From Nitrospirota bacterium (lineage in GTDB: Bacteria; Nitrospirota; Thermodesulfovibrionia; Thermodesulfovibrionales; SM23-35), in contig JBMOLW010000030.1 of assembly GCA_049323875.1 (NCBI GenBank), positions 224,393-288,392 on the forward strand: a stretch of DNA of 64,000 nt, given 5' to 3'. The notes under the pieces are model-generated. The model did not search any database and was not told the DNA's origin. It was given only the letters and a program-made list of their open reading frames with translations. Positions 39,048 to 63,239 of this stretch are shown one piece after another. Position numbers and translations under genes: made by a program. Every line of letters starts with the position of its first letter. Positions within the stretch are counted from its first letter, which is position 1.

Positions 39048-40184
39048 ATGCCTGACTCCGTGACTGAATTCCTATACATCCATATCCCCTTTTGTCTCAG
39101 GAAATGCCTGTATTGCGATTTCCTCTCTGTACCCTATGACCCGTCGCTGGCCGGAGACTATCTGAACGCACTCTGCAGGGAATTGGAGATAGAGAAGGAT
39201 AATGCAGGCGTACTCCGGGCCGTTTATATCGGAGGCGGTACGCCGTCAACTCTTTCTGAGAACCAGTTCATGAAGCTGCTCGGTTGTGTACAGAGCAACT
39301 ACGTTCTTTCGCCGGATGCAGAGATAACCGTCGAGGCAAATCCGGGTTCTCTGGACAAGAGAAAAATTGCTGCCCTGGCTTCATCGGGGGTAAACAGGCT
39401 CAGCCTCGGCGTCCAGTCTTTCCATGACTCTGAACTGAAGACCCTCGGAAGAATCCATTCCGCAGATGAAGCGCGGAGGTCTCTTGCACGGTTTCATGAA
39501 GCGGGAATCCCGAACTATTCAATCGATCTAATCTACGGAATACCCGGCCAGCATATCGATACGTGGGCCGGTTCACTTGAAGAAGCAGTCAGGTTTTCAC
39601 CCCTGCACATTTCTGCCTATGAACTGACTCCCGAGCAGAATACTCCGTTCGTCCGCCTGCTGGAATCAGGCCGTCTTGCGATGCCTGATGATGACCTGAT
39701 ACTCAGCATGTATGACCGGGCAATTGAGTATCTCGGAAGTTTTGGTTATACGCACTACGAGATATCCAATTATTCCATCGCCGGTTCTGAATGCAGGCAC
39801 AACCTCAATTACTGGGACAGAGGGGAATACCTTGGCGCCGGTGCCGGTGCCCACTCCTTCCTGAACGGGACGCGCTCGAGGAATACCGGCGATATACAGC
39901 AATATATCGATAATCTCTCACGCGGAAACATTCCCGGGAGGGAATCATACCGGATTGCACCCGCTGATTCTTTGAGGGAATATCTCTTCCTTGGCTTAAG
40001 GAAAAAGCAGGGTATTTCTCTCAGCAAAGCAGGTATTTTTTCAGAAGATATACCGGCGCTGTGCAGGGACCTGATCGACGAAGGGTTTTTAGCAGTCAGT
40101 GGCGATACCTTGAGGCTCACCAGCAAGGGGTTTCCTGTCTCCAATGCGGTCATCGTAAAACTCTTCGGGATATTCGGGCTGTAA
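39048..40184 (+). CDS. hemW: Radical SAM haem chaperone HemW (HemN-like, oxygen-independent coproporphyrinogen oxidase family)
   Basis: LYIHIPFCLRKCLYCDF (CxxxCxxC), GGGTPS, and an HemN C-terminal domain. Sits downstream of lepA, the common lepA-hemW arrangement. Confidence 0.9.
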   Translation: MPDSVTEFLYIHIPFCLRKCLYCDFLSVPYDPSLAGDYLNALCRELEIEKDNAGVLRAVYIGGGTPSTLSENQFMKLLGCVQSNYVLSPDAEITVEANPGSLDKRKIAALASSGVNRLSLGVQSFHDSELKTLGRIHSADEARRSLARFHEAGIPNYSIDLIYGIPGQHIDTWAGSLEEAVRFSPLHISAYELTPEQNTPFVRLLESGRLAMPDDDLILSMYDRAIEYLGSFGYTHYEISNYSIAGSECRHNLNYWDRGEYLGAGAGAHSFLNGTRSRNTGDIQQYIDNLSRGNIPGRESYRIAPADSLREYLFLGLRKKQGISLSKAGIFSEDIPALCRDLIDEGFLAVSGDTLRLTSKGFPVSNAVIVKLFGIFGL

Positions 40185-54085: not shown

Positions 54086-55052
54086 GATTATTTCCACTGG
54101 TTCGTTTCTTCCGGAAAAAGTCCTCACCAATCATGACCTTGAAAAAATGGTGGACACATCCGATAAATGGATCACCGAGAGAACAGGAATCAAGGAAAGG
54201 CGGATATCCGGTCCCGGTCAGGCAGCATCTGATCTCGCCTATGAGGCGTCACGGATTGCCCTTGAGAGAGCCGGAATCGGCGCCGGAGAAGTGAATGCAA
54301 TTATCGTCGGCACAATATCCGGTGACATGCCCTTCCCTTCAACTGCCTGCTTTCTGCAGGATAAGCTCGGGGCATCAAATGCCGTCGCCTTTGATGTCAA
54401 TGCCGCCTGTTCCGGTTTTCTCTATGCCCTCTATATTGCGGACAGTTTCATCAAATCCGGTCTCCAGGAAAAGATACTCGTGGTCGGCACCGAAATACTT
54501 TCACAGATAACCGACTGGGAAGACAGGACAACCTGTGTTCTCTTCGGTGACGGCGCGGGAGCCGTTCTCGTCGGTCCTTCTCAGGACGACCGGGGCTTGC
54601 TCTCGGTTCATATTCACTCTGACGGATCAATGTGGGACCTTATTTCAGTTCCCGGCGGAGGGTCACGCAATCCGGTTTCCCCTGATTCGATCAAACAGAG
54701 GCTTCACTATATCAAGATGAAAGGCAATGAAACGTTCAAGGTCGCGGTAAGGACTCTTGAGGAAATTGCCCTCACAACCCTTTCCCGGAACGGATTGGAC
54801 TCTTCGGATCTTTCACTGCTCATACCGCATCAGGCGAACCAGAGGATCATTCAGGCTACGGCAGACAGACTGAAGCTGCCGAAAGACAAAGTTGTGATGA
54901 ACCTTGAAAAGTACGGAAATACCTCTGCGGCTTCCATCCCGATAGCACTCGACGAAGCAGTCCGGACAGGAAGAATACAGGAGGGAGACTATATTCTGCT
55001 CGAAGCGTTCGGGGGCGGACTTACCTGGGCTTCCGCTCTAATAAAGTGGTGA
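54072..55052 (+). CDS. fabH: 3-oxoacyl-ACP synthase III
   Basis: GTG start. Active-site Cys in NAACSGFLYAL, His in IPHQANQRI, Asn in YGNTSAASIP. 326 aa. Confidence 0.95.
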   Translation: MQRSRIISTGSFLPEKVLTNHDLEKMVDTSDKWITERTGIKERRISGPGQAASDLAYEASRIALERAGIGAGEVNAIIVGTISGDMPFPSTACFLQDKLGASNAVAFDVNAACSGFLYALYIADSFIKSGLQEKILVVGTEILSQITDWEDRTTCVLFGDGAGAVLVGPSQDDRGLLSVHIHSDGSMWDLISVPGGGSRNPVSPDSIKQRLHYIKMKGNETFKVAVRTLEEIALTTLSRNGLDSSDLSLLIPHQANQRIIQATADRLKLPKDKVVMNLEKYGNTSAASIPIALDEAVRTGRIQEGDYILLEAFGGGLTWASALIKW

Positions 55053-57188
55053 TTTTCTTACCCCTGTGTCAAGGAGTCGCCTAACCGCAGACAGCAACTC
55101 TTTACCCTGGAACGGTTTTCTGATAAAGGCATCGACCAGATTCTCCTTGCTGAGCGAAGCATTGGTGTACCCTGAGATACCGATAATTCTGATCCCCGGT
55201 TTTATCTTTTTCAGGTTTTTTATCAGTTCGTCCCCTTCCATGAGCGGCATCATGATATCCGTAATCACAAGCTGAACAGTCCCGCTATTTTCCCTGAACA
55301 TATCGATTGCGTTGAGAGAGTTGTTGACCGGCATAACCTGGTACCCATGGTTTACCAGGATCTCTTTTACAAAATTGAGCACGTCCACATCGTCGTCAAC
55401 AACCATGATGTTCTCATTACCCTGCATGGAGGTACTCGCAGGCTTCGCGATACCCGCAAGAATTTTTTCAGACGCGGGGAAATAGATCACAAAAGTCGAT
55501 CCCTTGCCTGGTTCACTCTCGACGGAGATATATCCCTTGTGGTCCTTGACGATTCCGTACACCGTCGCAAGGCCCAGCCCCGTCCCCTTGCCCTTTTCCT
55601 TGGTAGTAAAAAAAGGGTCAAAAATCTTGTTCATAATCTGTGCAGGAATTCCGCTCCCGGTATCCGATACCGTCATCACAATATATTTGCCAGGTACTAT
55701 GTAAGTCGGAGTATCGTACCGTTCCCTTCCGATATCAGCCATCTCGGTTCGGATGGTAATAAGGCCGCCATCGGGCATTGCATCCCGTGCGTTCACCATA
55801 AGGTTCATGAGCACCTGTTCGACCTGGTTGGGATCACCCTCAAAGTTCTGAGAGGTGCTGCTCAATTCAAGTTTGATCCCTATCCTTTTGTCCAGCACCC
55901 CTTCGAAAAGCCGAACTGAGTCATTAATAATGTCATGAAGGTTCAGCGGGAGAACCTCATGGGTTTCCCTTCTCGCGAAACTGAGGAGTTTCGATACCAT
56001 CACCCCCGCCTTCCTTGCCGAGCTCTCGATATTCCTTACCCTCAGCTTTGAAGTTTCGTCCAGTTCGCTGAATTCCAGGAGCAGTTCCGAATACCCGAGG
56101 ATGGTGGTCAGGATGTTGTTGAAGTTATGGGCAATGCCGCCCGCGAGCGCTCCGACGGAATCCATTTTCTGTGAATGCATAAGCTGCTCCCGGATCCGCT
56201 TCTTTTCCGTAATATCGCGGTAGAAAGACTGGATGAAAAGTTCTCCTCCTATCTCTATCGCCTTTGCACTGACTTCAAGGTCTACCTTTTCCCCTTCCCT
56301 CCTGTAATGTTCTGTCTCATAGATTATTGATTCACCGTGCAGAATCCGCTCCCTCCGGTCGTCAATCTGTTTCTTATCGCCTCGTGCCTCGAGTAATTCA
56401 ATATTCACTCCTACGAGAGCATCTTTCTCAAACCCATGGATCTCGCAGGCCTTTTTGTTCACATTTACGATCGTTCCGTTCCTGTCCTGCACGATAATAC
56501 CGTCGGTAGCGTTATCGAAGACGGACTTGTGCCATTTCTCAGAGATGGCGAGTTCTTTGGTACGTTCCTGAACGAGGTCTTCGAGCTGGGTAGAATATTT
56601 TTCAAGCTGTGCTTTCTGTTGATCGAGGTCATATTGAAGTCCGACCTCGCTTACTAATCTTTGGTGATGCAGGTATCTTAAGAGGATAAGGGAAAACATT
56701 ACGGATAAGATAAAAATATTCGCATTAATAAAATAAGAGGGATTCGTGATTGTATCATAAAAAAGTATTGGCAGAAGAAATATTGCGTACATTATGGCAG
56801 AAGCTACGATACTCATAATTACGCTCACCGGGATAAGTCCTATAACGTAGACAACAGATAACATAATGCCTGCAAAATAAGGGGATTGATGTCCTCCTAT
56901 CTTGGCTATCATCAAGGCTACCATAGTACACACAGATATCGCAGCCAAGATAGTCACAACATTCTGTCTGTTCCTGTCAACTTTTTGTTTATTGTACAAA
57001 TAGATCAAAAAGATGGAGCCTGCGGCAAAGATGCGATATATTAAAAAAATTTCAAAGTTAGACGGGGTTACAAAATAATCGAGGATGATAAGAGAAAGAA
57101 TAACAAGGGAACCTATTTTTGTTGCAATATTGGACCAATGATAGAGAAGGATGTCCAGATTTGATCGAATGTATTCTTCTTTTGTCAT
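55038..57188 (-). CDS. Hybrid sensor histidine kinase: polytopic membrane sensor, PAS, HisKA, HATPase, C-terminal receiver
   Basis: About 6 TM helices in the first 190 aa, then a coiled coil. PAS domain (FDNATDGIIVQDRNGTIVNVN...), H-box GGIAHNFNNILTTILGY, ATPase motifs NARDAM, DTGSGI and GTGLGLATV, and a REC domain (IMVVDDDVDVL...VITDIMMPLMEG). Confidence 0.9.
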   Translation of the reverse strand: MTKEEYIRSNLDILLYHWSNIATKIGSLVILSLIILDYFVTPSNFEIFLIYRIFAAGSIFLIYLYNKQKVDRNRQNVVTILAAISVCTMVALMIAKIGGHQSPYFAGIMLSVVYVIGLIPVSVIMSIVASAIMYAIFLLPILFYDTITNPSYFINANIFILSVMFSLILLRYLHHQRLVSEVGLQYDLDQQKAQLEKYSTQLEDLVQERTKELAISEKWHKSVFDNATDGIIVQDRNGTIVNVNKKACEIHGFEKDALVGVNIELLEARGDKKQIDDRRERILHGESIIYETEHYRREGEKVDLEVSAKAIEIGGELFIQSFYRDITEKKRIREQLMHSQKMDSVGALAGGIAHNFNNILTTILGYSELLLEFSELDETSKLRVRNIESSARKAGVMVSKLLSFARRETHEVLPLNLHDIINDSVRLFEGVLDKRIGIKLELSSTSQNFEGDPNQVEQVLMNLMVNARDAMPDGGLITIRTEMADIGRERYDTPTYIVPGKYIVMTVSDTGSGIPAQIMNKIFDPFFTTKEKGKGTGLGLATVYGIVKDHKGYISVESEPGKGSTFVIYFPASEKILAGIAKPASTSMQGNENIMVVDDDVDVLNFVKEILVNHGYQVMPVNNSLNAIDMFRENSGTVQLVITDIMMPLMEGDELIKNLKKIKPGIRIIGISGYTNASLSKENLVDAFIRKPFQGKELLSAVRRLLDTGVRKSPLY

Positions 57189-57270: not shown

Positions 57271-58683
57271 TCATTTCATTTTTTCTTTTCTCAATATCCT
57301 TTTGGCTGTATCATGTCCCGAATAACATGTTCCCGGCATGCCGAATGCGATGCTTGTCCAGTGACCGGTGAGATACAAACCACGAATACCAGTCGTTTTG
57401 CTGAAAAGTGCATCATAAGTCTGCGATGTCGTCTTTGCCCAACCAAAAGCCGCACCTTGAGAATTAAGAGTATATCGATATAACGTGTGAGGGGTAGCTG
57501 CATCAAAATAAACAATATTCTCCCTGATATTCGGAAACAAAGTTTCAATTCTGTTCAAAAAATTATCAGCCACTTTCTTTTTATTTTCTTTCCAGAACAA
57601 TTTATTCATAAAAGGAGCACCGACAAATGCTAATAAGGTTTTCTGGTCGGGAGATACCCTGAACATATACATACCGGCCTTGCCGAAATTGCACTGCTGT
57701 ATTTGGCTATAGATTTCATCCAGATCGTAATGCGGAAGATACCATGTGTTTGTGCCAGGAGGCGGAAGTCCCGCAAATGGTTTATTGATGCCAATATAGA
57801 GAATGAACGTTGATATCGAAGGAACCATATTTTTCAGACTTTCAATTCTCTGTTTGTCAGGGATTGTCTCCCTTAATAAACGAGTATACGTTTGATTCAT
57901 ATCACATGCTGATATGACATATTTGGAACTGAGTGTTACATTGTTTTCCAATTTTACTCCTACTACTGAATCGTGGGTAACAAGAATTTCGTTTACAAGA
58001 GTCCGGTAGAGAATCTTCCCGTGGTTCTCTTTGATAATATAATCGAATGCATTAGGCATATTTTGTATGCCGCCTTCCGGATAGTACCCACCATCAATAA
58101 TAAATTCACTAAATATTTTTGAACCGCTGAATGCATGCATGAGAGATGGCGGTAACCCTCCATTACCAAATACCGGGATAGCAAATGAACTTATCAGTTT
58201 TTCGTCCCGAAAAAAAGACCTCAGCAAGGATTCGAATGTCTTGCTCTTCAATGTACTAAACTGCGCTTGATTTGAGGACATGAGGAAATCAAAGAACTTT
58301 TTGAGATTATCTTTCTCCTGAGGGAACAGCGTTGCCAGTCCAGCCAATGTAGTATCCTTGTCATTCCAAAAGGTCATTGTAAAATCTGGGGCGATTATAA
58401 TGTCAGAGGGATCAAAGCGTTCAATTTTGATTATTTTATCAACTCCCAATTCTGTGAATATTTTATAGACATGTCCACCCTCTCGATAGTTACCGAAAGA
58501 ATGTGCTGCAGAATCGAACAGGAATCCCTTCCTCTTGAAGGAGGTAAAATAGCCTCCTGGTTTATCATGCTGCTCTACGATCAGTACTTTCATGCCCGCT
58601 TTTGCCAGATAGCACCCGCACACAAGGCCGCTTATTCCAGCGCCTATGATAATGGCGTCGTACGTAGTTTGAGATTTTGTCAT
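57271..58683 (-). CDS. CrtI/phytoene-desaturase-like FAD-dependent oxidoreductase
   Basis: N-terminal dinucleotide fold YDAIIIGAGISGLVCGCYLAKAGMKVLIVEQHDKPGG. 470 aa, and the C-terminal LYLTGHWT matches the family. Its ATG abuts the ACP stop with a 0-nt gap. Confidence 0.8.
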   Translation of the reverse strand: MTKSQTTYDAIIIGAGISGLVCGCYLAKAGMKVLIVEQHDKPGGYFTSFKRKGFLFDSAAHSFGNYREGGHVYKIFTELGVDKIIKIERFDPSDIIIAPDFTMTFWNDKDTTLAGLATLFPQEKDNLKKFFDFLMSSNQAQFSTLKSKTFESLLRSFFRDEKLISSFAIPVFGNGGLPPSLMHAFSGSKIFSEFIIDGGYYPEGGIQNMPNAFDYIIKENHGKILYRTLVNEILVTHDSVVGVKLENNVTLSSKYVISACDMNQTYTRLLRETIPDKQRIESLKNMVPSISTFILYIGINKPFAGLPPPGTNTWYLPHYDLDEIYSQIQQCNFGKAGMYMFRVSPDQKTLLAFVGAPFMNKLFWKENKKKVADNFLNRIETLFPNIRENIVYFDAATPHTLYRYTLNSQGAAFGWAKTTSQTYDALFSKTTGIRGLYLTGHWTSIAFGMPGTCYSGHDTAKRILRKEKMK

Positions 58684-58935
58684 TTAAGAGGCTTTCTCTT
58701 TTAATAACGAGGTTACGAGTTCAACTGCCTGGGTAAGGGTGGTAATATTCGGCACATCTTCATCCCTGATGGATATTTTGAATTTTTTTTCTATTGCCAC
58801 CGTAATCTCAATCGCTTTAATGGAATCTATTTCCAGATCAGTAGCTAAATTTTTGTCAGGGGTTATCTCTTCCGGTTCAAATCCTGAGACATCCGAGATG
58901 ATCGATATAATTTCTTGTTCCACATTTTCTGACAT
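58684..58935 (-). CDS. Dedicated acyl carrier protein (divergent from housekeeping AcpP)
   Basis: 83 aa. Phosphopantetheine attachment context LATDLEIDSIKAIEITVAIEKKF (D-S-I in place of the canonical D-S-L) in a four-helix-length protein. Confidence 0.8.
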   Translation of the reverse strand: MSENVEQEIISIISDVSGFEPEEITPDKNLATDLEIDSIKAIEITVAIEKKFKISIRDEDVPNITTLTQAVELVTSLLKEKAS

Positions 58936-58961: not shown

Positions 58962-60167
58962 TTATGCATATTTTCTCACTACCAGTGCTGCATTATTGCC
59001 TCCGAATGCATAAGAATTATTCAGGGCGATATTTACAACATGTTCCCTCGCCTTGTTCGGCACACAGTCTATATCACACTCCGGGTCAGGTGTCTCGTAG
59101 TTGATCGTCGGAGGGATGATATCATTTTTCACAACCAGCGCACAGGTTACCCCTTCTATTGCGGAAGCCGCTCCCATGGTATGGCCTATCATAGATTTTA
59201 CGGAACTAACCGGTATAGAGGAATGCCGGTCTTTGAAAACCTGTTTGATCGCTGCACATTCAGTCCTGTCGTTCGCCCTGGTCCCGGTGCCGTGAGCGCA
59301 GATATAGTCCACGTCTTTTTCACTGATGTCTGCTCCCTTCAGCGCATTCATCATGCACCGTGCAACCCCGTCAACAGATGGCTGCGTCATATGCTGCGCA
59401 TCGCAGCTGAGGCCGTACCCTGATATTTCCGCATAAATTTCAGCGTTCCTTTGCAACGCACTTTCAAGGGATTCGAGGATGAGCATACCCGCCCCTTCCG
59501 CTACCATCATGCCTTTTCTGTTCTTATCAAAAGGCTGACATTTCTCAGGAGCAACCGCACGTAACTGGTTGAACCCGGTAAACTCAATGCGGGAGAACGG
59601 ATCTGATGCGCCAGCGATAACTATATCCGCCCTGTGAAGCCTGATCAGGTCATAGCCGTAGGCAATCCCATAATTTCCGGCTGCGCATGCCGTCGTAAAA
59701 ATAAGGACAGGGCCATTGATTCCGTATTGTCTCGCTGTGTTGCACGGAGCAGCGTGCGTTGGTATTTTGGAAACACTACGGCGATCAACCGATTTCTTGT
59801 GAACCAGCATCGTATTGATATCCTCTATCGTCTGCGCATCACCCAGCGTTGTACCAAATGAAACACCCACGGTCTTTCTCTTAAGGTAGTCTGTTTCAAT
59901 ACCTGAATCAGCAAAGGCGAGTTTCGTTGCAGCCAACGCCATGTGAGAGGAACGGTTCAATAACTTCACGCGTTCTTTATCGATAAAATCTTCCGGCACA
60001 AAACTTTTTACTTCTCCGCCATTGTGGGTAAAATGATCCGCCGTATCAAATGACGAAACAGGACTGATGCCGGACGTCCCCTGAAGGAGGTTCTCCCAGA
60101 ATTCTTTCCATCCTATTCCAATGGATGAAACAACACCCAGTCCTGTAATGACTACCCGTTTATTCAT
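58962..60167 (-). CDS. Beta-ketoacyl-ACP synthase (KAS I/II, FabF-like) with intact Cys-His-His triad
   Basis: MNKRVVITGLGVVSS. Active-site Cys in FTTACAAGNYG, His in ICAHGTGTRANDRTE, His in SVKSMIGHTMGAAS. The ATG at 60167 overlaps the FabZ stop by 8 nt; the ORF track extends to 60242. Confidence 0.88.
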   Translation of the reverse strand: MNKRVVITGLGVVSSIGIGWKEFWENLLQGTSGISPVSSFDTADHFTHNGGEVKSFVPEDFIDKERVKLLNRSSHMALAATKLAFADSGIETDYLKRKTVGVSFGTTLGDAQTIEDINTMLVHKKSVDRRSVSKIPTHAAPCNTARQYGINGPVLIFTTACAAGNYGIAYGYDLIRLHRADIVIAGASDPFSRIEFTGFNQLRAVAPEKCQPFDKNRKGMMVAEGAGMLILESLESALQRNAEIYAEISGYGLSCDAQHMTQPSVDGVARCMMNALKGADISEKDVDYICAHGTGTRANDRTECAAIKQVFKDRHSSIPVSSVKSMIGHTMGAASAIEGVTCALVVKNDIIPPTINYETPDPECDIDCVPNKAREHVVNIALNNSYAFGGNNAALVVRKYA

Positions 60168-60600
60168 GCCTGGCACTGAAAACAAGTTCCGCTTCCGCAA
60201 CTTTTTTATCACCGACAAAAGCTTCTCCCGCAACAAACGCACCTGACGGCAGAGATTTTACGTTTCTTACTTTGATCATCAGCTGGTCTCCGGGAACGAC
60301 CGGATGGGAAAACCGTGCCTTGCAGGAACCGAAATAGTAAAGCGATTTTGCGTCAGTGCCGGCTGTCTCCTTACCGCTGGCAAAGAGAATAATCGCAGTC
60401 TGTGCCATCGCCTCGATGATAAGGGCACCGGGCATGACCGGGGTCTCAGGGAAATGTCCCGGGAAGAACGGTTCATTCATTGAAACATTCTTGAGCGCAA
60501 CAGCTTCTTTTCCGGGTTCCCCATCGAGTACCCTGTCAATCATGAGGAAAGGGTACCTTTGGGGAATCAGTTTCCTGATTGCCTTGATATCAAGTTCCAT
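60160..60600 (-). CDS. FabZ-type 3-hydroxyacyl-ACP dehydratase (hot-dog fold)
   Basis: IPQRYPFLMIDRV and NEPFFPGHFPETPVMPGALIIEAMAQ are canonical FabZ motifs, including the catalytic His. 146 aa. Confidence 0.88.
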   Translation of the reverse strand: MELDIKAIRKLIPQRYPFLMIDRVLDGEPGKEAVALKNVSMNEPFFPGHFPETPVMPGALIIEAMAQTAIILFASGKETAGTDAKSLYYFGSCKARFSHPVVPGDQLMIKVRNVKSLPSGAFVAGEAFVGDKKVAEAELVFSARHE

Positions 60601-60602
60601 TG

Positions 60603-61844
60603 TTATTCCTCGTATCTCTGCAGCACCATTGCCGCATTATTGCCATAAGGATCAGCAGCAAGCACGAGCGTATTTCTTATCATTTTTTTTCTCGCACTGT
60701 TCGGGACATAATCAAGATCACATTCCTGATCCTTCTCTTCATACCCTACTGTTGGTGAGACAATTCCGCGATGGAGACACTCTGTTGCTGCTGCGAGGGA
60801 GAGAGCTCCGGAAGCCGAAAAGGTTTCTCCTGTCATGGATTTAACGGAACTGACCGGGATATCATATGCATACCTGCCGAAAACATTCTTCAGAACGGCT
60901 GTTTCCATCCTGTCGAGCCCTCTGGTGGAATTTGCACATGAGGCAATACAGTCTATGTCTTCCGGAACGAGGGATGCTTCTTTCAAAGCATTCCTGACCG
61001 CATTTGCCAACCCTTCCCCTCCATGGGAAAAGTCCATTGCCGATTCATAATCAAAGGCATTGCTGTAACCAAGAACGGTTGCATAAATTTCAGCGCTTCT
61101 CTCAAGCGCGCGTGTTTTCTCCTCAAGAACAAGAACGGCAGCCCCTTCAGAGAGAATCGTTCCATTTCTCCTCGCATCAAAAGGACAACAGAGAGGCTCT
61201 GTCCCATCCATTCCTGACAGACATCCGAGCCTAGAGAAGCCAAGGAGTGTTTCTTCACACAGCTCCTCGACCCCGCCTGCAAGTACGACATCTGCCCGTC
61301 CAAGCCGGATAAAATCAGCTCCATATGACACCGCATCAAGACCCGCACAAAACCCTGTTGAGATCGTGGCATTAAATCCCCTGATCTTGAACCTTATCGA
61401 TGCCTGACTCGCAGGTGAATTGAGCACTGTATTCGGGAAATGCGAGGGATTGACATATTTCGGTCCATCGAGAAGACCCTGCCTGTCGAATTCAGCGATG
61501 CTATGGAGACTTCCGAACGTAGAGCCGATTGCGACTCCTATACGATGGGTGTTTTCCTCTGTAACCTCCAGCCCTGAATCATCCAGCGCGAGCTTTGCTG
61601 CGGCACTGAGCAACTGGGTGCTTCTGTCAAGCGTCCGGAGCCCTTTCTTGCCGAGCAGAGCAACCGGATCAAAGGCATTGATCTCTCCGGCATGATGCAC
61701 TTTCAATCCCGAGGTATCAAACAGGCTTATCGGTCTGAATCCTGTCCTGCCCTGAACGAGACTATCCCAGTATTCTTCCCTGCCGATACCCACGGGGGAC
61801 ACTATTCCCATCCCGGTAATCACGACGGTTTTCATAGTCTTCAA
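60603..61844 (-). CDS. Ketosynthase paralog lacking both catalytic histidines (Cys-Cys-Glu in place of Cys-His-His)
   Basis: Thiolase-fold KS throughout (VVITGMGIVSPVGIG...). Cys is retained in ISTGFCAGLDA. The first His position reads IASCANSTRGLD and the second reads SVKSMTGETFSASG. 413 aa. Confidence 0.85.
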   Translation of the reverse strand: MKTMKTVVITGMGIVSPVGIGREEYWDSLVQGRTGFRPISLFDTSGLKVHHAGEINAFDPVALLGKKGLRTLDRSTQLLSAAAKLALDDSGLEVTEENTHRIGVAIGSTFGSLHSIAEFDRQGLLDGPKYVNPSHFPNTVLNSPASQASIRFKIRGFNATISTGFCAGLDAVSYGADFIRLGRADVVLAGGVEELCEETLLGFSRLGCLSGMDGTEPLCCPFDARRNGTILSEGAAVLVLEEKTRALERSAEIYATVLGYSNAFDYESAMDFSHGGEGLANAVRNALKEASLVPEDIDCIASCANSTRGLDRMETAVLKNVFGRYAYDIPVSSVKSMTGETFSASGALSLAAATECLHRGIVSPTVGYEEKDQECDLDYVPNSARKKMIRNTLVLAADPYGNNAAMVLQRYEE

Positions 61845-61934: not shown

Positions 61935-63239
61935 CTATGATGATGCCAGATAAAACACTATGACACCTGAATCCTCCCGGGTTTCGGTGATTGAACTCTT
62001 CGGAATATCAGCATCGGCAAATATCCGGAAAAAATCTTCCTCAGTCCGCTGCAGGAAACCATCCCAATCCACAATCCAGTGGTAATCCTGGTGCCGGTAG
62101 CGCCTGGCGTCCTTGAATGAGGTAATAAGCAGTCCTCCCGGGTTCAACAGCCTGTACAGGCTGTTGAACAGCCGTGCAAGAAATTCTGATTCAAGATAAT
62201 CAAAGAAACCGACGCTGTAGATTATATCCTGCTTTCCGAATTCACTCACGTTCAGTTCGTGGTCAAACATCCTGAGGGCATTGTATTTCCGCAGCACGAC
62301 CTGGTCTGATGTCAGCGGAGAAATATTCGTATAGGAAAGCCGGTTTGCTGAGAAAGAGAGGGCGTCGTTATCAATGTCTATACAGGTGAAGCGGGCACCT
62401 GATTCCTCAATGTCCCGCGCCAGCGTAAAGACTTCACGGCAAGATCCGCAGGCAATATTCAGAACATTCGGTTTCTCTCTCTTTCTCAATTCTTGTCTTA
62501 ATATTCCTTCGAGTTTCTCTATCCTGTTCCTTACTGCGGGGCCAAGGTCCGCATCCAACAGATAGCGATCCAGATAGTATCCAATGCCTTCCGACAGCGG
62601 GGTATTCTTATAGGCAATCTCAAGCGTTTTGTAATCACCCTGCTGACCTTGCGGCCATGTACGCGCCCGGTTGATGCAGTAACTTTTCGAAAGGACTGTG
62701 TTGGTTTTCTCCCTGAACCGTATCCTCGTCGCCCTGATGACATCCCTGTCTTTCACCTTCTGTTCGAATTCGGCGCAGGACCTCAGCACGTCATCTATCG
62801 CCTCCCTGGTCACCTGAAAAAGTTCTTCAGGTTTTTCTTCCGGGTTAAGGCATCTTTTTTCCAGGGTTTCAAGACGTGCATTGAATACCTCGGTGGCCTC
62901 ATCGAGCCGGTCAACATATTTCCCGTCCAGCTCAACACCGGCCCTGTACCCGGTCTCGACCTGAGAACACCAGCGCACGAATCCAACCTTTTCCTCAATC
63001 CCGCCGTTGAACCATATCACATTCCCCGGCGAAAGAGGATAATCGGTTTGTATACCGACACCAGTCTTGCTGATATCAACCGCCTGCGCCTTCAGATCTA
63101 TCAGTCTGCGCTGTTTCGCATCATTCGAAAAAACAGAATAATCGACTTCGATTGCACAGGGCATTCTCGAAACCTTCCGGTTTGTTGCATGGTAAACTGT
63201 TCCTGAATATTCCATAAGACCCCCTTTTTGATACTCCAT
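61935..63239 (-). CDS. PilZ domain fused to class I SAM-dependent methyltransferase
   Basis: The N-terminus has RKVSR (RxxxR) and DISKTG (DxSxxG). The C-terminus has SAM motif I VLNIACGSCRE, then FTCIDIDNDAL, IIYSVGFFDYL and LNPGGLLI. The alternative start is the ATG at 63215. Confidence 0.8.
   Translation of the reverse strand: MEYQKGGLMEYSGTVYHATNRKVSRMPCAIEVDYSVFSNDAKQRRLIDLKAQAVDISKTGVGIQTDYPLSPGNVIWFNGGIEEKVGFVRWCSQVETGYRAGVELDGKYVDRLDEATEVFNARLETLEKRCLNPEEKPEELFQVTREAIDDVLRSCAEFEQKVKDRDVIRATRIRFREKTNTVLSKSYCINRARTWPQGQQGDYKTLEIAYKNTPLSEGIGYYLDRYLLDADLGPAVRNRIEKLEGILRQELRKREKPNVLNIACGSCREVFTLARDIEESGARFTCIDIDNDALSFSANRLSYTNISPLTSDQVVLRKYNALRMFDHELNVSEFGKQDIIYSVGFFDYLESEFLARLFNSLYRLLNPGGLLITSFKDARRYRHQDYHWIVDWDGFLQRTEEDFFRIFADADIPKSSITETREDSGVIVFYLASS

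What the first reader, a model, noticed from the sequence alone, without database searches (positions are those of the whole stretch)
60603..61844. Ketosynthase paralog keeps the acyl-accepting Cys but has Cys and Glu where the two catalytic His should be
By eye I aligned this protein against the FabF pattern (TACxxG ... AHGTSTxxGD ... KSMxGHxxGAAG). It reads ISTGFCAGLDA (Cys at residue 166), IASCANSTRGLD (Cys at residue 303) and KSMTGETFSASG (Glu at residue 340). The neighbouring KS (58962-60167) has the full Cys/His/His set. In KAS I/II enzymes the two His residues drive malonyl-ACP decarboxylation. This paralog could therefore be loaded with an acyl group but should not decarboxylate. That differs from type II PKS chain-length factors, which lose the Cys. 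It suggests a partner, gatekeeper, priming or acyl-transfer role in a KS heterodimer.
Basis: seen in the sequence. Interest (0 to 1): 0.6.

Follow-up and report, generated by a model that had tools for sequence, protein, structure and literature searches.

The report
Inactive partner subunit of a ketosynthase pair

Summary
The gene is real: minus strand, 60603-61835/61844, 410-413 aa. Both catalytic His are replaced, by Cys303 and Glu340, and Lys335 is kept. The neighbouring KS has Cys/His/His.

The headline claim fails. Three alignment methods (phmmer, MAFFT, hhalign) place the catalytic Cys opposite Phe165. Cys166 is the +1 residue, which is Ala/Ser/Thr in canonical KS. So the true triad is Phe/Cys/Glu, and the nucleophile is lost as in chain-length factors.

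The closest solved structure is Brocadia fulgida amxFabFmut (9S5H chain C, E 8e-111). It forms a KS/chain-length-factor-like heterodimer with amxFabF2, and the neighbouring KS matches amxFabF2 at E 8e-146.

The operon MT-KSmut-FabZ-KS-ACP-phytoene-desaturase-like is syntenic in 80 Nitrospirota (Thermodesulfovibrionia) genomes; KSmut is followed by the KS in 54 of 56. The G-F-C motif is invariant in 121 sequences, position 303 varies, and conservation is densest in the helix-loop-helix that lines the partner's acyl tunnel (F136/T139/V140). Fused KS-KSmut proteins of about 800 aa also exist.

Verdict: a new member of a known kind, with low to moderate interest. The product of the operon in Nitrospirota is unknown.

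The parts
60603..61844 (-). KSmut: amxFabFmut-like, CLF-like inactive ketosynthase paralogue. It is 413 aa from the TTG at 61844. The ATG at 61835, giving 410 aa, is the likelier start.
   Evidence: ORF; Pfam PF00109 + PF02801. TIGR03150 fabF scores 338.9 bits, below its 493.75 cut-off. The best PDB sequence match is 9s5h_C, E 7.9e-111. An identical 410-aa NCBI protein comes from a Nitrospirota MAG. A GAGGG motif lies 11 nt before the ATG at 61835.
61347..61355 (-). Codons for Gly164-Phe165-Cys166. Phe165 occupies the catalytic-Cys position and Cys166 is the +1 residue.
   Evidence: G-F-C is invariant in 121/121 close homologues.
60936..60938 (-). Codon for Cys303, at the position of the first catalytic His (FabF His303).
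   Evidence: The position varies in the clade: C81/S32/G6/F1/N1.
60825..60842 (-). Codons for Lys335 to Glu340 (KSMTGE). Lys is retained and Glu replaces the second catalytic His.
   Evidence: Glu is also present in Brocadia amxFabFmut and in Kuste3606.
61425..61439 (-). Codons for Phe136 to Val140 (FPNTV) in the helix-loop-helix motif. They are equivalent to Brocadia amxFabFmut Phe135/Thr138/Val139, which line the partner's acyl tunnel.
   Evidence: Alignment; the paper. F/T/V is kept in most of the 82 family representatives. These positions are invariant in 121 close homologues.
60160..60600 (-). FabZ-type 3-hydroxyacyl-ACP dehydratase. Its start lies 2 nt after the KSmut stop.
   Evidence: TIGR01750 scores 161.9 bits, above its 155.15 cut-off. 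The best PDB matches are 7qv0_A and the 8ay* entries (E 2e-36). 7QV0 also holds an ACP chain; that these are the anammox amxFabZ structures is my inference, because no tool result names them. Junction sequence.
58962..60167 (-). Canonical KS (amxFabF2 orthologue) with Cys161/His292/Lys324/His329. Its ATG overlaps the FabZ stop.
   Evidence: 9s5h_B, E 8e-146; residues. The longer GTG ORF starting at 60242 extends beyond the region of homology.
58684..58935 (-). Dedicated acyl carrier protein.
   Evidence: PF00550. PDB matches include the ACP chains of 7qv0 (chain D), 7auf and 9s5i (chain E). 9S5I is the amxFabFhet-ACP complex entry.
57271..58683 (-). Phytoene-desaturase-like (CrtI family) FAD oxidoreductase.
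   Evidence: PF01593 and TIGR02734 crtI_fam, the latter at 141.8 bits, below its cut-off. It follows the ACP in 36/44 related loci.
61935..63239 (-). SAM-dependent methyltransferase with a weak N-terminal PilZ-like region, immediately upstream of KSmut.
   Evidence: It lies upstream of KSmut in 64/64 related loci.
55038..57188 (-). Membrane PAS hybrid histidine kinase/response regulator. It is a conserved downstream neighbour and a possible regulator.
   Evidence: It is present downstream in 39/42 related loci.

Best explanation
The gene encodes the non-catalytic, chain-length-factor-like subunit (here called KSmut) of a heterodimeric ketosynthase. Its partner is the canonical KS encoded two genes downstream. 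The pair is the Nitrospirota orthologue of anammox amxFabFmut/amxFabF2. KSmut keeps the FabF fold, but its own active site is dismantled: Phe165 replaces the nucleophilic Cys, Cys303 and Glu340 replace the two His, and Lys335 is kept.

By inference from the anammox structure, KSmut dimerises with the canonical KS. Its helix-loop-helix motif (residues about 110-140, including Phe136, Thr139 and Val140) closes and lines the acyl-binding tunnel of the active subunit. That would make the active subunit functional and help set the chain length it accepts. All thioester chemistry (acyl transfer to Cys161, malonyl-ACP decarboxylation, condensation) would occur on the canonical subunit, using the operon's own ACP. 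The operon's FabZ and phytoene-desaturase-like flavoenzyme, and the upstream methyltransferase, would then process the chain.

Shown here: homology, active-site residue identities, synteny, the conservation pattern and the existence of fusions. Inferred: physical heterodimerisation, tunnel formation, and catalytic inertness of this particular protein. The product of the pathway in Nitrospirota is unknown.
For: (1) Closest solved relative. 9s5h_C (amxFabFmut) scores 373.9 bits, against 269.6 for amxFabF2 and 257.9 for B. subtilis FabF. The adjacent KS matches 9s5h_B (amxFabF2) at 489 bits. The FabZ and ACP also match chains of entries 7qv0 and 9s5i.
(2) The preprint 10.64898/2026.05.19.726425 reports that amxFabF2 and amxFabFmut are each inactive alone. 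Together they co-purify, decarboxylate malonyl-ACP and make acetoacetyl-ACP, and they crystallise as a heterodimer. FabFmut Phe135/Thr138/Val139 line the active subunit's tunnel, and mutating Val139, or Phe135 together with Val139, changes probe chain-length preference.
(3) Phe165 sits at the nucleophile position by three alignment methods.
(4) Conservation pattern. 89 of 413 positions are invariant in 121 homologues, and they are densest in residues 107-150 (helix-loop-helix and tunnel). Position 303 of the former active site varies freely. Across 82 divergent family representatives the nucleophile position is hypervariable (F, Y, E, M, G, I, A, S, Q, C and others), while F136/T139/V140 are mostly kept.
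(5) Synteny. KSmut is followed by the canonical KS in 54/56 Nitrospirota loci with enough sequence, with tight or overlapping gene junctions in the window.
(6) Many roughly 800-aa proteins fuse a canonical C/H/K/H KS domain to a KSmut-like x/x/K/E domain. This is a Rosetta-stone argument for a physical pair.
(7) The AF2 monomer model is confident (pLDDT 88.5, pTM 0.91) except for residues 132-140. That region lies in the helix-loop-helix motif, part of which (residues 110-130) was disordered in the amxFabFmut homodimer crystallised without its partner. The top fold match is B. subtilis FabF (TM 0.96), as reported for amxFabFmut.
Against: No heterodimer was modelled or measured for this pair. 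The electrostatic asymmetry that the authors use to explain heterodimer specificity could not be checked without coordinates. A rough hand count of charges in the aligned helix-loop-helix segments did not obviously reproduce it. Asp311, Lys335 and Glu340 are (near-)invariant across the whole family, and Cys166 is invariant in this clade. That leaves room for some residual function of the 'dead' site. Two related loci (L062, L063) carry MT-FabG-KSmut with no adjacent canonical KS. The window lacks the B12 radical-SAM gene of the anammox cluster, so the pathway is not simply the anammox one.
Confidence: 0.8

Rival explanations
1. Cys166 is a working acyl-accepting nucleophile, so the subunit can be loaded with an acyl chain but cannot decarboxylate malonyl-ACP. 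It would act as a priming, holding or acyl-transfer subunit, like the non-elongating KS0 domains of trans-AT PKS.
For: Cys166 is invariant in 121/121 close homologues. In the anammox heterodimer a second tunnel leads from the FabFmut surface to the mutated triad and was occupied by PEG. From the KAS I/II mutagenesis literature as I recall it (not looked up here), transacylation needs the Cys but not the His pair.
Against: Cys166 is at +1, not at the nucleophile position, which is the bulky Phe165, invariant in the clade. Canonical KS have A/S/T at +1 (71/73), and the wider KSmut family has T/A/C/S/V there. Cys is therefore one of several small residues tolerated at a packed position. Cys166 is one of 89 invariant positions in the clade, so its invariance is not exceptional. 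Anammox FabFmut alone did not react with alpha-bromoacyl-ACP probes. In the heterodimer the adduct the authors monitored and quantified was on amxFabF2. However, those proteins carry Thr at +1 (Brocadia chain), so that experiment does not directly test a +1 Cys.
Confidence: 0.05
2. KSmut works on its own, as a homodimer, as an enzyme with a different chemistry. It would use the conserved Asp311/Lys335/Glu340 constellation, for example as a decarboxylase, a thioesterase-like enzyme, or a coupling enzyme of the kind Rattray et al. proposed for Kuste3606.
For: Lys335, Glu340 and Asp311 are invariant or nearly so over a very divergent family. Scalindua amxFabFmut crystallised as a homodimer. L062 and L063 have KSmut without an adjacent canonical KS.
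Against: Anammox FabFmut alone had no detectable activity, and its helix-loop-helix was disordered in the homodimer. Co-occurrence with the canonical KS is near-universal (54/56), and fusions exist. The nucleophile position is hypervariable across the family, which is not what a conserved catalytic centre looks like.
Confidence: 0.1
3. The gene is a decaying pseudo-enzyme, or an assembly or sequencing artefact, with no function.
For: All three catalytic triad positions are substituted.
Against: The ORF is intact. An identical protein is in NCBI from a 560-kb contig. The gene is conserved at 52-81% identity in 80 species-level genomes with conserved synteny. 89 positions are invariant. The predicted fold is confident.
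Confidence: 0.01

Closest known systems
amxFabFmut of anammox 'Cluster I' (Brocadia fulgida, PDB 9S5H/9S5I chain C; Kuenenia Kuste3606), partner of amxFabF2 (Granatino et al., bioRxiv 2026, 10.64898/2026.05.19.726425; Rattray et al. 2009, PMC2649909)
   Same: Best sequence match among solved structures (E 8e-111, aligned end to end). The FabF fold is kept. The catalytic Cys is lost, both His are replaced (Glu at the second His in both), and Lys is kept. The tunnel residues F/T/V of the helix-loop-helix are identical. The gene lies in one operon with an amxFabF2 orthologue, a FabZ, an ACP and a phytoene-desaturase-like gene.
   Different: The nucleophile position is Phe, against Val or Thr in anammox. 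The +1 residue is Cys, against Thr in Brocadia. The first His position is Cys here (variable C/S/G in the clade), against Asn in Brocadia and Kuenenia. The host is a Nitrospirota (Thermodesulfovibrionales) MAG, a group in which I found no report of ladderanes. The gene order differs: FabZ lies between the two KS genes. A methyltransferase is always upstream. There is no B12 radical-SAM gene in the window; it is present in only 2 of 80 related loci.
Chain-length factors (KS-beta) of type II polyketide synthases, e.g. actinorhodin ActB (1TQY chain B) and ishigamide Iga12 (6KXD)
   Same: An inactive KS paralogue encoded next to an active KS. It lacks the catalytic Cys and is expected to form a heterodimer in which it shapes the acyl tunnel of the active subunit.
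   Different: It is much more distant in sequence: 1tqy_B at E 2.8e-47, against 8e-111 for amxFabFmut. Aromatic-PKS CLFs carry Gln at the Cys position (from my own knowledge), whereas this protein has Phe. The context here is FAS-like (FabZ, with FabG in many relatives), not an aromatic PKS.
Canonical FabF / KAS II (e.g. B. subtilis FabF 4LS5/4LS8, E. coli FabF)
   Same: Same fold (Foldseek TM 0.96), same length, about 34% identity. Lys335 and the KSM motif are retained.
   Different: It scores below the NCBIfam fabF cut-off (338.9 against 493.75 bits). The Cys-His-His triad is replaced by Phe-Cys-Glu. It is expected to be a heterodimer partner rather than a homodimeric enzyme.
Non-elongating KS0 domains of trans-AT PKS (Cys kept, His lost; named from my own knowledge, not tested here)
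   Different: KS0 domains keep the Cys at the nucleophile position; this protein does not. Relatives that do keep it exist elsewhere: P0136 (labelled Poribacteria) and P0171 read G-C-V...S...K...E, and the second domain of P0129 (a cluster member of which is labelled Helarchaeota) reads G-C-V...G...K...E.

Membership tests
amxFabFmut-type CLF-like partner of a FAS-type ketosynthase | FabF/KAS II fold with both ketoacyl-synthase domains | tested here: met
   PF00109 at 2e-41 and PF02801 at 1e-21. AF2 model with pLDDT 88.5 and pTM 0.91. Foldseek TM 0.96 to B. subtilis FabF.
amxFabFmut-type CLF-like partner of a FAS-type ketosynthase | Closer to amxFabFmut than to amxFabF2 or to canonical FabF | tested here: met
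   373.9 bits to 9s5h_C, 269.6 to 9s5h_B and 257.9 to 4ls6.
amxFabFmut-type CLF-like partner of a FAS-type ketosynthase | Catalytic Cys replaced by a non-nucleophilic residue | tested here: met
   Phe165 sits at the nucleophile column and is invariant in 121 homologues.
amxFabFmut-type CLF-like partner of a FAS-type ketosynthase | Both catalytic His replaced (Asn/Glu/Cys in anammox), Lys kept | tested here: met
   Cys303, Glu340 and Lys335.
amxFabFmut-type CLF-like partner of a FAS-type ketosynthase | Encoded with a canonical-triad FabF2 orthologue, a FabZ, a dedicated ACP and a phytoene-desaturase-like gene | tested here: met
   Synteny: KS 54/56, ACP 47/50, FabZ 44/56, PDH 36/44.
amxFabFmut-type CLF-like partner of a FAS-type ketosynthase | Helix-loop-helix residues that line the partner's tunnel (Brocadia Phe135/Thr138/Val139) | tested here: met
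   Phe136/Thr139/Val140 by ungapped alignment, conserved in the family.
amxFabFmut-type CLF-like partner of a FAS-type ketosynthase | Physical heterodimer with the canonical KS; activity only as a pair | not testable with these tools
   Only indirect support: natural KS-KSmut fusions and co-occurrence.
Anammox ladderane 'Cluster I' as a whole | B12-dependent radical-SAM gene in the cluster | tested here: not met
   None lies next to the operon. The only radical-SAM gene found among the ORFs I scanned (26640-51727 and the operon) is HemN-like, at 39048-40184 beside lepA. There is no tblastn match in the window to the B12-rSAM that L055 and L038 carry next to PDH.
Type II PKS chain-length factor (KS-beta) | Inactive KS paralogue lacking the catalytic Cys, adjacent to an active KS | tested here: met
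Type II PKS chain-length factor (KS-beta) | Gln at the Cys position (aromatic PKS CLFs; from my own knowledge) and close sequence kinship to KS-beta | tested here: not met
   Phe165, not Gln. 1tqy_B scores only E 2.8e-47 and ranks below dozens of FabF entries.
Canonical FabF (KAS II) | Cys-His-His triad and a score above the family cut-off | tested here: not met
   The triad is Phe/Cys/Glu. TIGR03150 scores 338.9 bits against a 493.75 cut-off.
   Cys166 is at +1 and the nucleophile column holds Phe165.

The most novel reading that the evidence does not exclude
The 'dead' site may not be dead. In this Nitrospirota clade the invariant Cys166, next to the blocked nucleophile position, together with the family-wide Asp311/Lys335/Glu340, would form a non-canonical site in the second tunnel. 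That tunnel is open in the anammox heterodimer structure. The site would carry out some chemistry of its own, for example holding or passing on an acyl group, or helping the malonyl-ACP decarboxylation that primes the pathway. The heterodimer would then have two different working sites rather than one.
Probability: 0.06. Interest if true: 0.6.

Novelty: new member of a known kind. Interest (0 to 1): 0.27.

Why it matters
That framing rests on an alignment register that is off by one, so it falls away.

Two modest points remain. [quoted passage not shown] A clear orthologous operon is conserved across at least 80 species-level Thermodesulfovibrionia genomes, and divergent or fused relatives occur in other phyla. 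This fits earlier antiSMASH-based reports of 'ladderane-type' clusters in non-anammox bacteria. It argues that the KS/KSmut-FabZ-ACP-desaturase core makes something more general than ladderanes. Second, the conservation pattern gives independent comparative support for the chain-length-factor model: the old active site is variable while the partner-facing helix-loop-helix is invariant. The pattern also points to residues worth mutating.

Tried and rejected
(1) I tested whether Cys166 could be brought onto the catalytic column by a local indel. I rejected this because the spacing to conserved residues on both sides is identical to canonical KS, and three aligners give the same ungapped register.

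(2) I tried to reproduce from sequence the electrostatic asymmetry that the authors use to explain heterodimer specificity. A rough hand count of charges in the aligned helix-loop-helix segments was inconclusive, and I did not use it. Coordinates are needed.

(3) I looked for a B12 radical-SAM gene in the window. I did not find one among the ORFs scanned; the only radical-SAM gene seen is HemN-like, beside lepA. The B12-rSAM found in L055 and L038 has many homologues at 57-62% identity labelled Fibrobacterota, Chitinispirillia, Chitinivibrionia, Spirochaetes and others, and none among the 120 listed carries an anammox name. Its orthology to the anammox Cluster I enzyme is therefore not established.

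(4) A taxonomy look-up of divergent family representatives gave little: only Poribacteria and Helarchaeota labels.

(5) Rfam and tRNA scans of the window found nothing. The ORF-poor stretch 23.5-25.5 kb holds only small ORFs and a short imperfect repeat.

(6) I did not attempt a heterodimer structure prediction.

(7) A literature search for Thermodesulfovibrio plus ladderane returned nothing relevant.
Full report
**What is there.**
The finding's coordinates hold an ORF on the minus strand, 60603-61844 (413 aa from a TTG). An ATG at 61835, preceded by GAGGG, gives the 410-aa protein that NCBI annotates identically in a Nitrospirota MAG. The protein has both ketoacyl-synthase Pfam domains. It scores below the NCBIfam fabF cut-off, 338.9 against 493.75 bits.

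It lies in a tightly packed minus-strand operon:
- methyltransferase, 61935-63239
- this protein ('KSmut'), 60603-61844
- FabZ, 60160-60600, starting 2 nt after the KSmut stop
- a canonical KS, 58962-60167, whose ATG overlaps the FabZ stop
- ACP, 58684-58935
- a phytoene-desaturase-like flavoenzyme, 57271-58683
- a PAS hybrid histidine kinase, 55038-57188

On the other strand, just beyond, are yceD-rpmF-plsX-fabH.

**Checking the observation.**
The quoted peptides and residue numbers are correct: Cys166, Cys303, Glu340 and Lys335. The His registers are correct. HMMER alignments to B. subtilis FabF (…nahgtst… / …ksmtgh…) and to Brocadia amxFabF2 put the two catalytic His opposite Cys303 and Glu340. 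A profile-profile alignment agrees. The neighbouring KS has Cys161/His292/Lys324/His329.

The Cys register is off by one. The query reads S-T-G-F-C-A-G where canonical enzymes read S-T-A-C-A-[AT]-G. With the flanking Thr and Gly in register, and the same spacing to a Gly nine residues upstream and to the GG 25 residues downstream, the catalytic Cys falls on Phe165 and Cys166 is the next residue. Three methods give this result:
- phmmer pairwise alignments
- a MAFFT alignment of 204 KS domains, in which column 165 is Cys in 72 of 73 His-His domains and column 166 is Ala/Ser/Thr in 71 of 73
- hhalign between an 18-sequence KSmut profile and a 12-sequence canonical profile

In Brocadia amxFabFmut the residue opposite Phe165 is Val. 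The authors name Val as the replacement of the catalytic Cys, and Kuste3606 is listed as Val163. The AF2 model has a strand at 158-161 and a helix starting at 164. That is the usual strand-elbow-helix geometry with residue 165 at the helix N-terminus. It is consistent with the register but not decisive on its own.

The true 'triad' is therefore Phe165/Cys303/Glu340. The protein has lost the nucleophile, as chain-length factors have.

**Not an artefact.**
In 120 homologues at 52-100% identity, G164-F165-C166 is invariant (121/121 counting the query). Glu340 is present in 119/121 (Asp in 2) and Lys335 in 121/121. Position 303 is C81/S32/G6/F1/N1.

**What it is.**
The best match among all solved structures is 9S5H/9S5I chain C (E 7.9e-111), ahead of chain B (3.9e-79) and of canonical FabFs. 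These entries belong to a 2026 preprint (10.64898/2026.05.19.726425) on the two FabF homologues of the anammox 'Cluster I'. That cluster comprises amxACP, amxFabZ, amxFabF2, amxFabFmut, a phytoene-dehydrogenase homologue and a B12 radical-SAM enzyme.

The preprint reports the following:
- amxFabFmut has lost the Cys (to Val or Thr) and both His (to Asn, Glu or Cys).
- Neither protein is active alone. Co-expressed, they co-purify, decarboxylate malonyl-ACP and form acetoacetyl-ACP.
- The crystal structure is a KS/chain-length-factor-like heterodimer.
[quoted passage not shown] Mutating Val139, or Phe135 together with Val139, changes the chain-length preference of crosslinking probes.

The window's canonical KS matches amxFabF2 at E 8e-146. 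Its FabZ is closest to 7qv0_A and the 8ay* entries. Its ACP matches the ACP chains of 7qv0, 7auf and 9s5i. The three tunnel residues are conserved here as Phe136/Thr139/Val140.

**Comparative evidence for the partner role.**
A scan of one genome per GTDB species returned 80 loci. All but two are labelled Nitrospirota, Nitrospirae or Thermodesulfovibrionia; of the other two, one is labelled Syntrophales and one only 'Bacterium'. Among loci with enough flanking sequence:
- KSmut is followed by the canonical KS in 54/56.
- The methyltransferase precedes it in 64/64.
- The ACP follows in 47/50, FabZ in 44/56, the desaturase-like gene in 36/44 and the histidine kinase in 39/42.

In the 121 close sequences, 89 of 413 positions are invariant. 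They are densest in residues 107-150, the helix-loop-helix and tunnel region, whereas the former catalytic position 303 drifts.

I then searched a library of 1.84 billion representative proteins. The top 150 include 82 domains with the x/x/Lys/Glu signature. In these the nucleophile column is hypervariable: F 23, Y 7, E 7, M 6, G 6 and others, with only 3 Cys. The +1 column is T/A/C/S/V. F/T/V at 136/139/140 is mostly retained. Many of the hits are proteins of about 800 aa that fuse a canonical Cys/His/Lys/His KS domain to a KSmut-like domain. That is what one expects of two proteins that work as a physical pair.

The AF2 monomer model is confident except for residues 132-140. This lies in the helix-loop-helix motif, part of which (residues 110-130) was disordered when amxFabFmut was crystallised without its partner. 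The top fold match is B. subtilis FabF, as the authors found for amxFabFmut.

**How it most likely works.**
KSmut is the non-catalytic half of a heterodimeric KS. It stabilises the active subunit and supplies part of the wall of that subunit's acyl tunnel. All thioester chemistry takes place on Cys161/His292/His329 of the canonical subunit, with the operon's ACP. This rests on homology, residue identities, synteny, conservation and fusions, all shown here, and on transfer of the anammox biochemistry and structure, which is inference. I put it at about 0.8.

Cys166 is invariant in this clade, but so is a fifth of the protein. The +1 position tolerates any small residue across KS enzymes, and Phe165 fills the nucleophile position. 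An independent enzymatic role for the conserved Asp311/Lys335/Glu340 constellation cannot be excluded (about 0.1).

**Comparison with the known, and novelty.**
The protein passes every sequence-level criterion of the amxFabFmut kind. The heterodimer itself cannot be tested with these tools. It works like a type II PKS chain-length factor but is not a member of that family: the sequence is distant, and it has Phe where aromatic-PKS CLFs have Gln. It fails the tests for canonical FabF and for a Cys-retaining, non-elongating KS.

The window's operon is not the anammox Cluster I as such. There is no B12 radical-SAM gene beside it, the gene order differs, and a methyltransferase is always attached. 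'Ladderane-type' clusters in non-anammox bacteria have already been noted in antiSMASH-based surveys, with unknown function. I found no paper describing the Thermodesulfovibrionia operon specifically.

The finding is therefore a new member of a known kind. The feature that made it look unusual is an alignment slip. What the operon makes in Nitrospirota remains unknown.

Noticed in passing
L003:9245-9997 and 47 other related loci (for example L017, L006, L018): A FabG-like short-chain dehydrogenase (250 aa; adh_short_C2 at 2.5e-69) sits between the methyltransferase and KSmut in 41 of 64 related loci. It is absent from that position in the window, where the methyltransferase ends 90 bp before KSmut.
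   Followed up: partly
L055:9852-11123 and L038:18175-19557: Two of the 80 related Nitrospirota loci carry a B12-binding radical-SAM gene (CxxxCxxC; PF04055 + PF02310) immediately upstream of the phytoene-desaturase-like gene, as in the anammox Cluster I. Its listed homologues at 57-62% identity are labelled Fibrobacterota, Chitinispirillia, Chitinivibrionia, Spirochaetes and others, and none carries an anammox name. Orthology to the anammox enzyme is not established.
   Followed up: partly
L023:11765-12625; also L004, L026, L064, L076: A second methyltransferase of 286 aa, with a weak match to mycolic-acid cyclopropane synthase (CMAS, 3e-8), is inserted in the operon in five related loci. In four of them it lies between FabZ and the canonical KS; in L026 it lies downstream of the KS.
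   Followed up: partly
P0123, P0127, P0129-P0131 and many others: Proteins of about 800 aa fuse a canonical KS domain (Cys/His/Lys/His) to a KSmut-like domain (x/x/Lys/Glu), mostly in that order. A member of the P0129 cluster (P0271, NVM52546.1) is labelled Candidatus Helarchaeota archaeon.
   Followed up: partly
P0136 (labelled Candidatus Poribacteria), P0171, P0129 domain 2: A few divergent family members do keep Cys at the true nucleophile column (G-C-V) while having Ser or Gly and Glu at the His positions. These would be the proteins to examine for an acyl-loading, non-decarboxylating subunit.
   Followed up: no
window:61935-63239 (minus strand): The methyltransferase upstream of KSmut has an N-terminal extension of about 230 aa with a weak PilZ match (E 0.002, below the cut-off). 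It is the most tightly linked neighbour, upstream of KSmut in 64/64 loci. Its role is unknown.
   Followed up: partly
window:55038-57188 (minus strand): A membrane PAS hybrid histidine kinase with a receiver domain follows the operon in 39 of 42 related loci. This suggests that the operon is under dedicated sensory control.
   Followed up: no
L062:8204-12532 and L063: Two related loci have MT-FabG-KSmut followed by unrelated genes (a tRNA U5-methyltransferase-like gene, a poly(A)-polymerase-family gene, chromate transporter genes, guaB, guaA). No canonical KS, FabZ, ACP or desaturase-like gene is nearby. These are exceptions to the pairing rule, unless the partner is encoded elsewhere in the genome.
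   Followed up: partly
window:58962-60242 and 61835-61844: The mechanical ORF calls overextend both KS genes. Homology to amxFabF2 starts at the ATG at 60167, not at the GTG at 60242. The KSmut start is more likely the ATG at 61835 (410 aa, as annotated by NCBI) than the TTG at 61844.
   Followed up: yes
window:60160-60600 (minus strand): The FabZ, the ACP and both KS proteins also give sub-threshold matches to the NCBIfam models for cispentacin biosynthesis (AmcE cyclising decarboxylase at 92 bits against a 140 cut-off; AmcF; AmcB). That pathway is another KS/CLF-type system, one that builds a carbocycle. These matches probably reflect only shared FAS ancestry.
   Followed up: no
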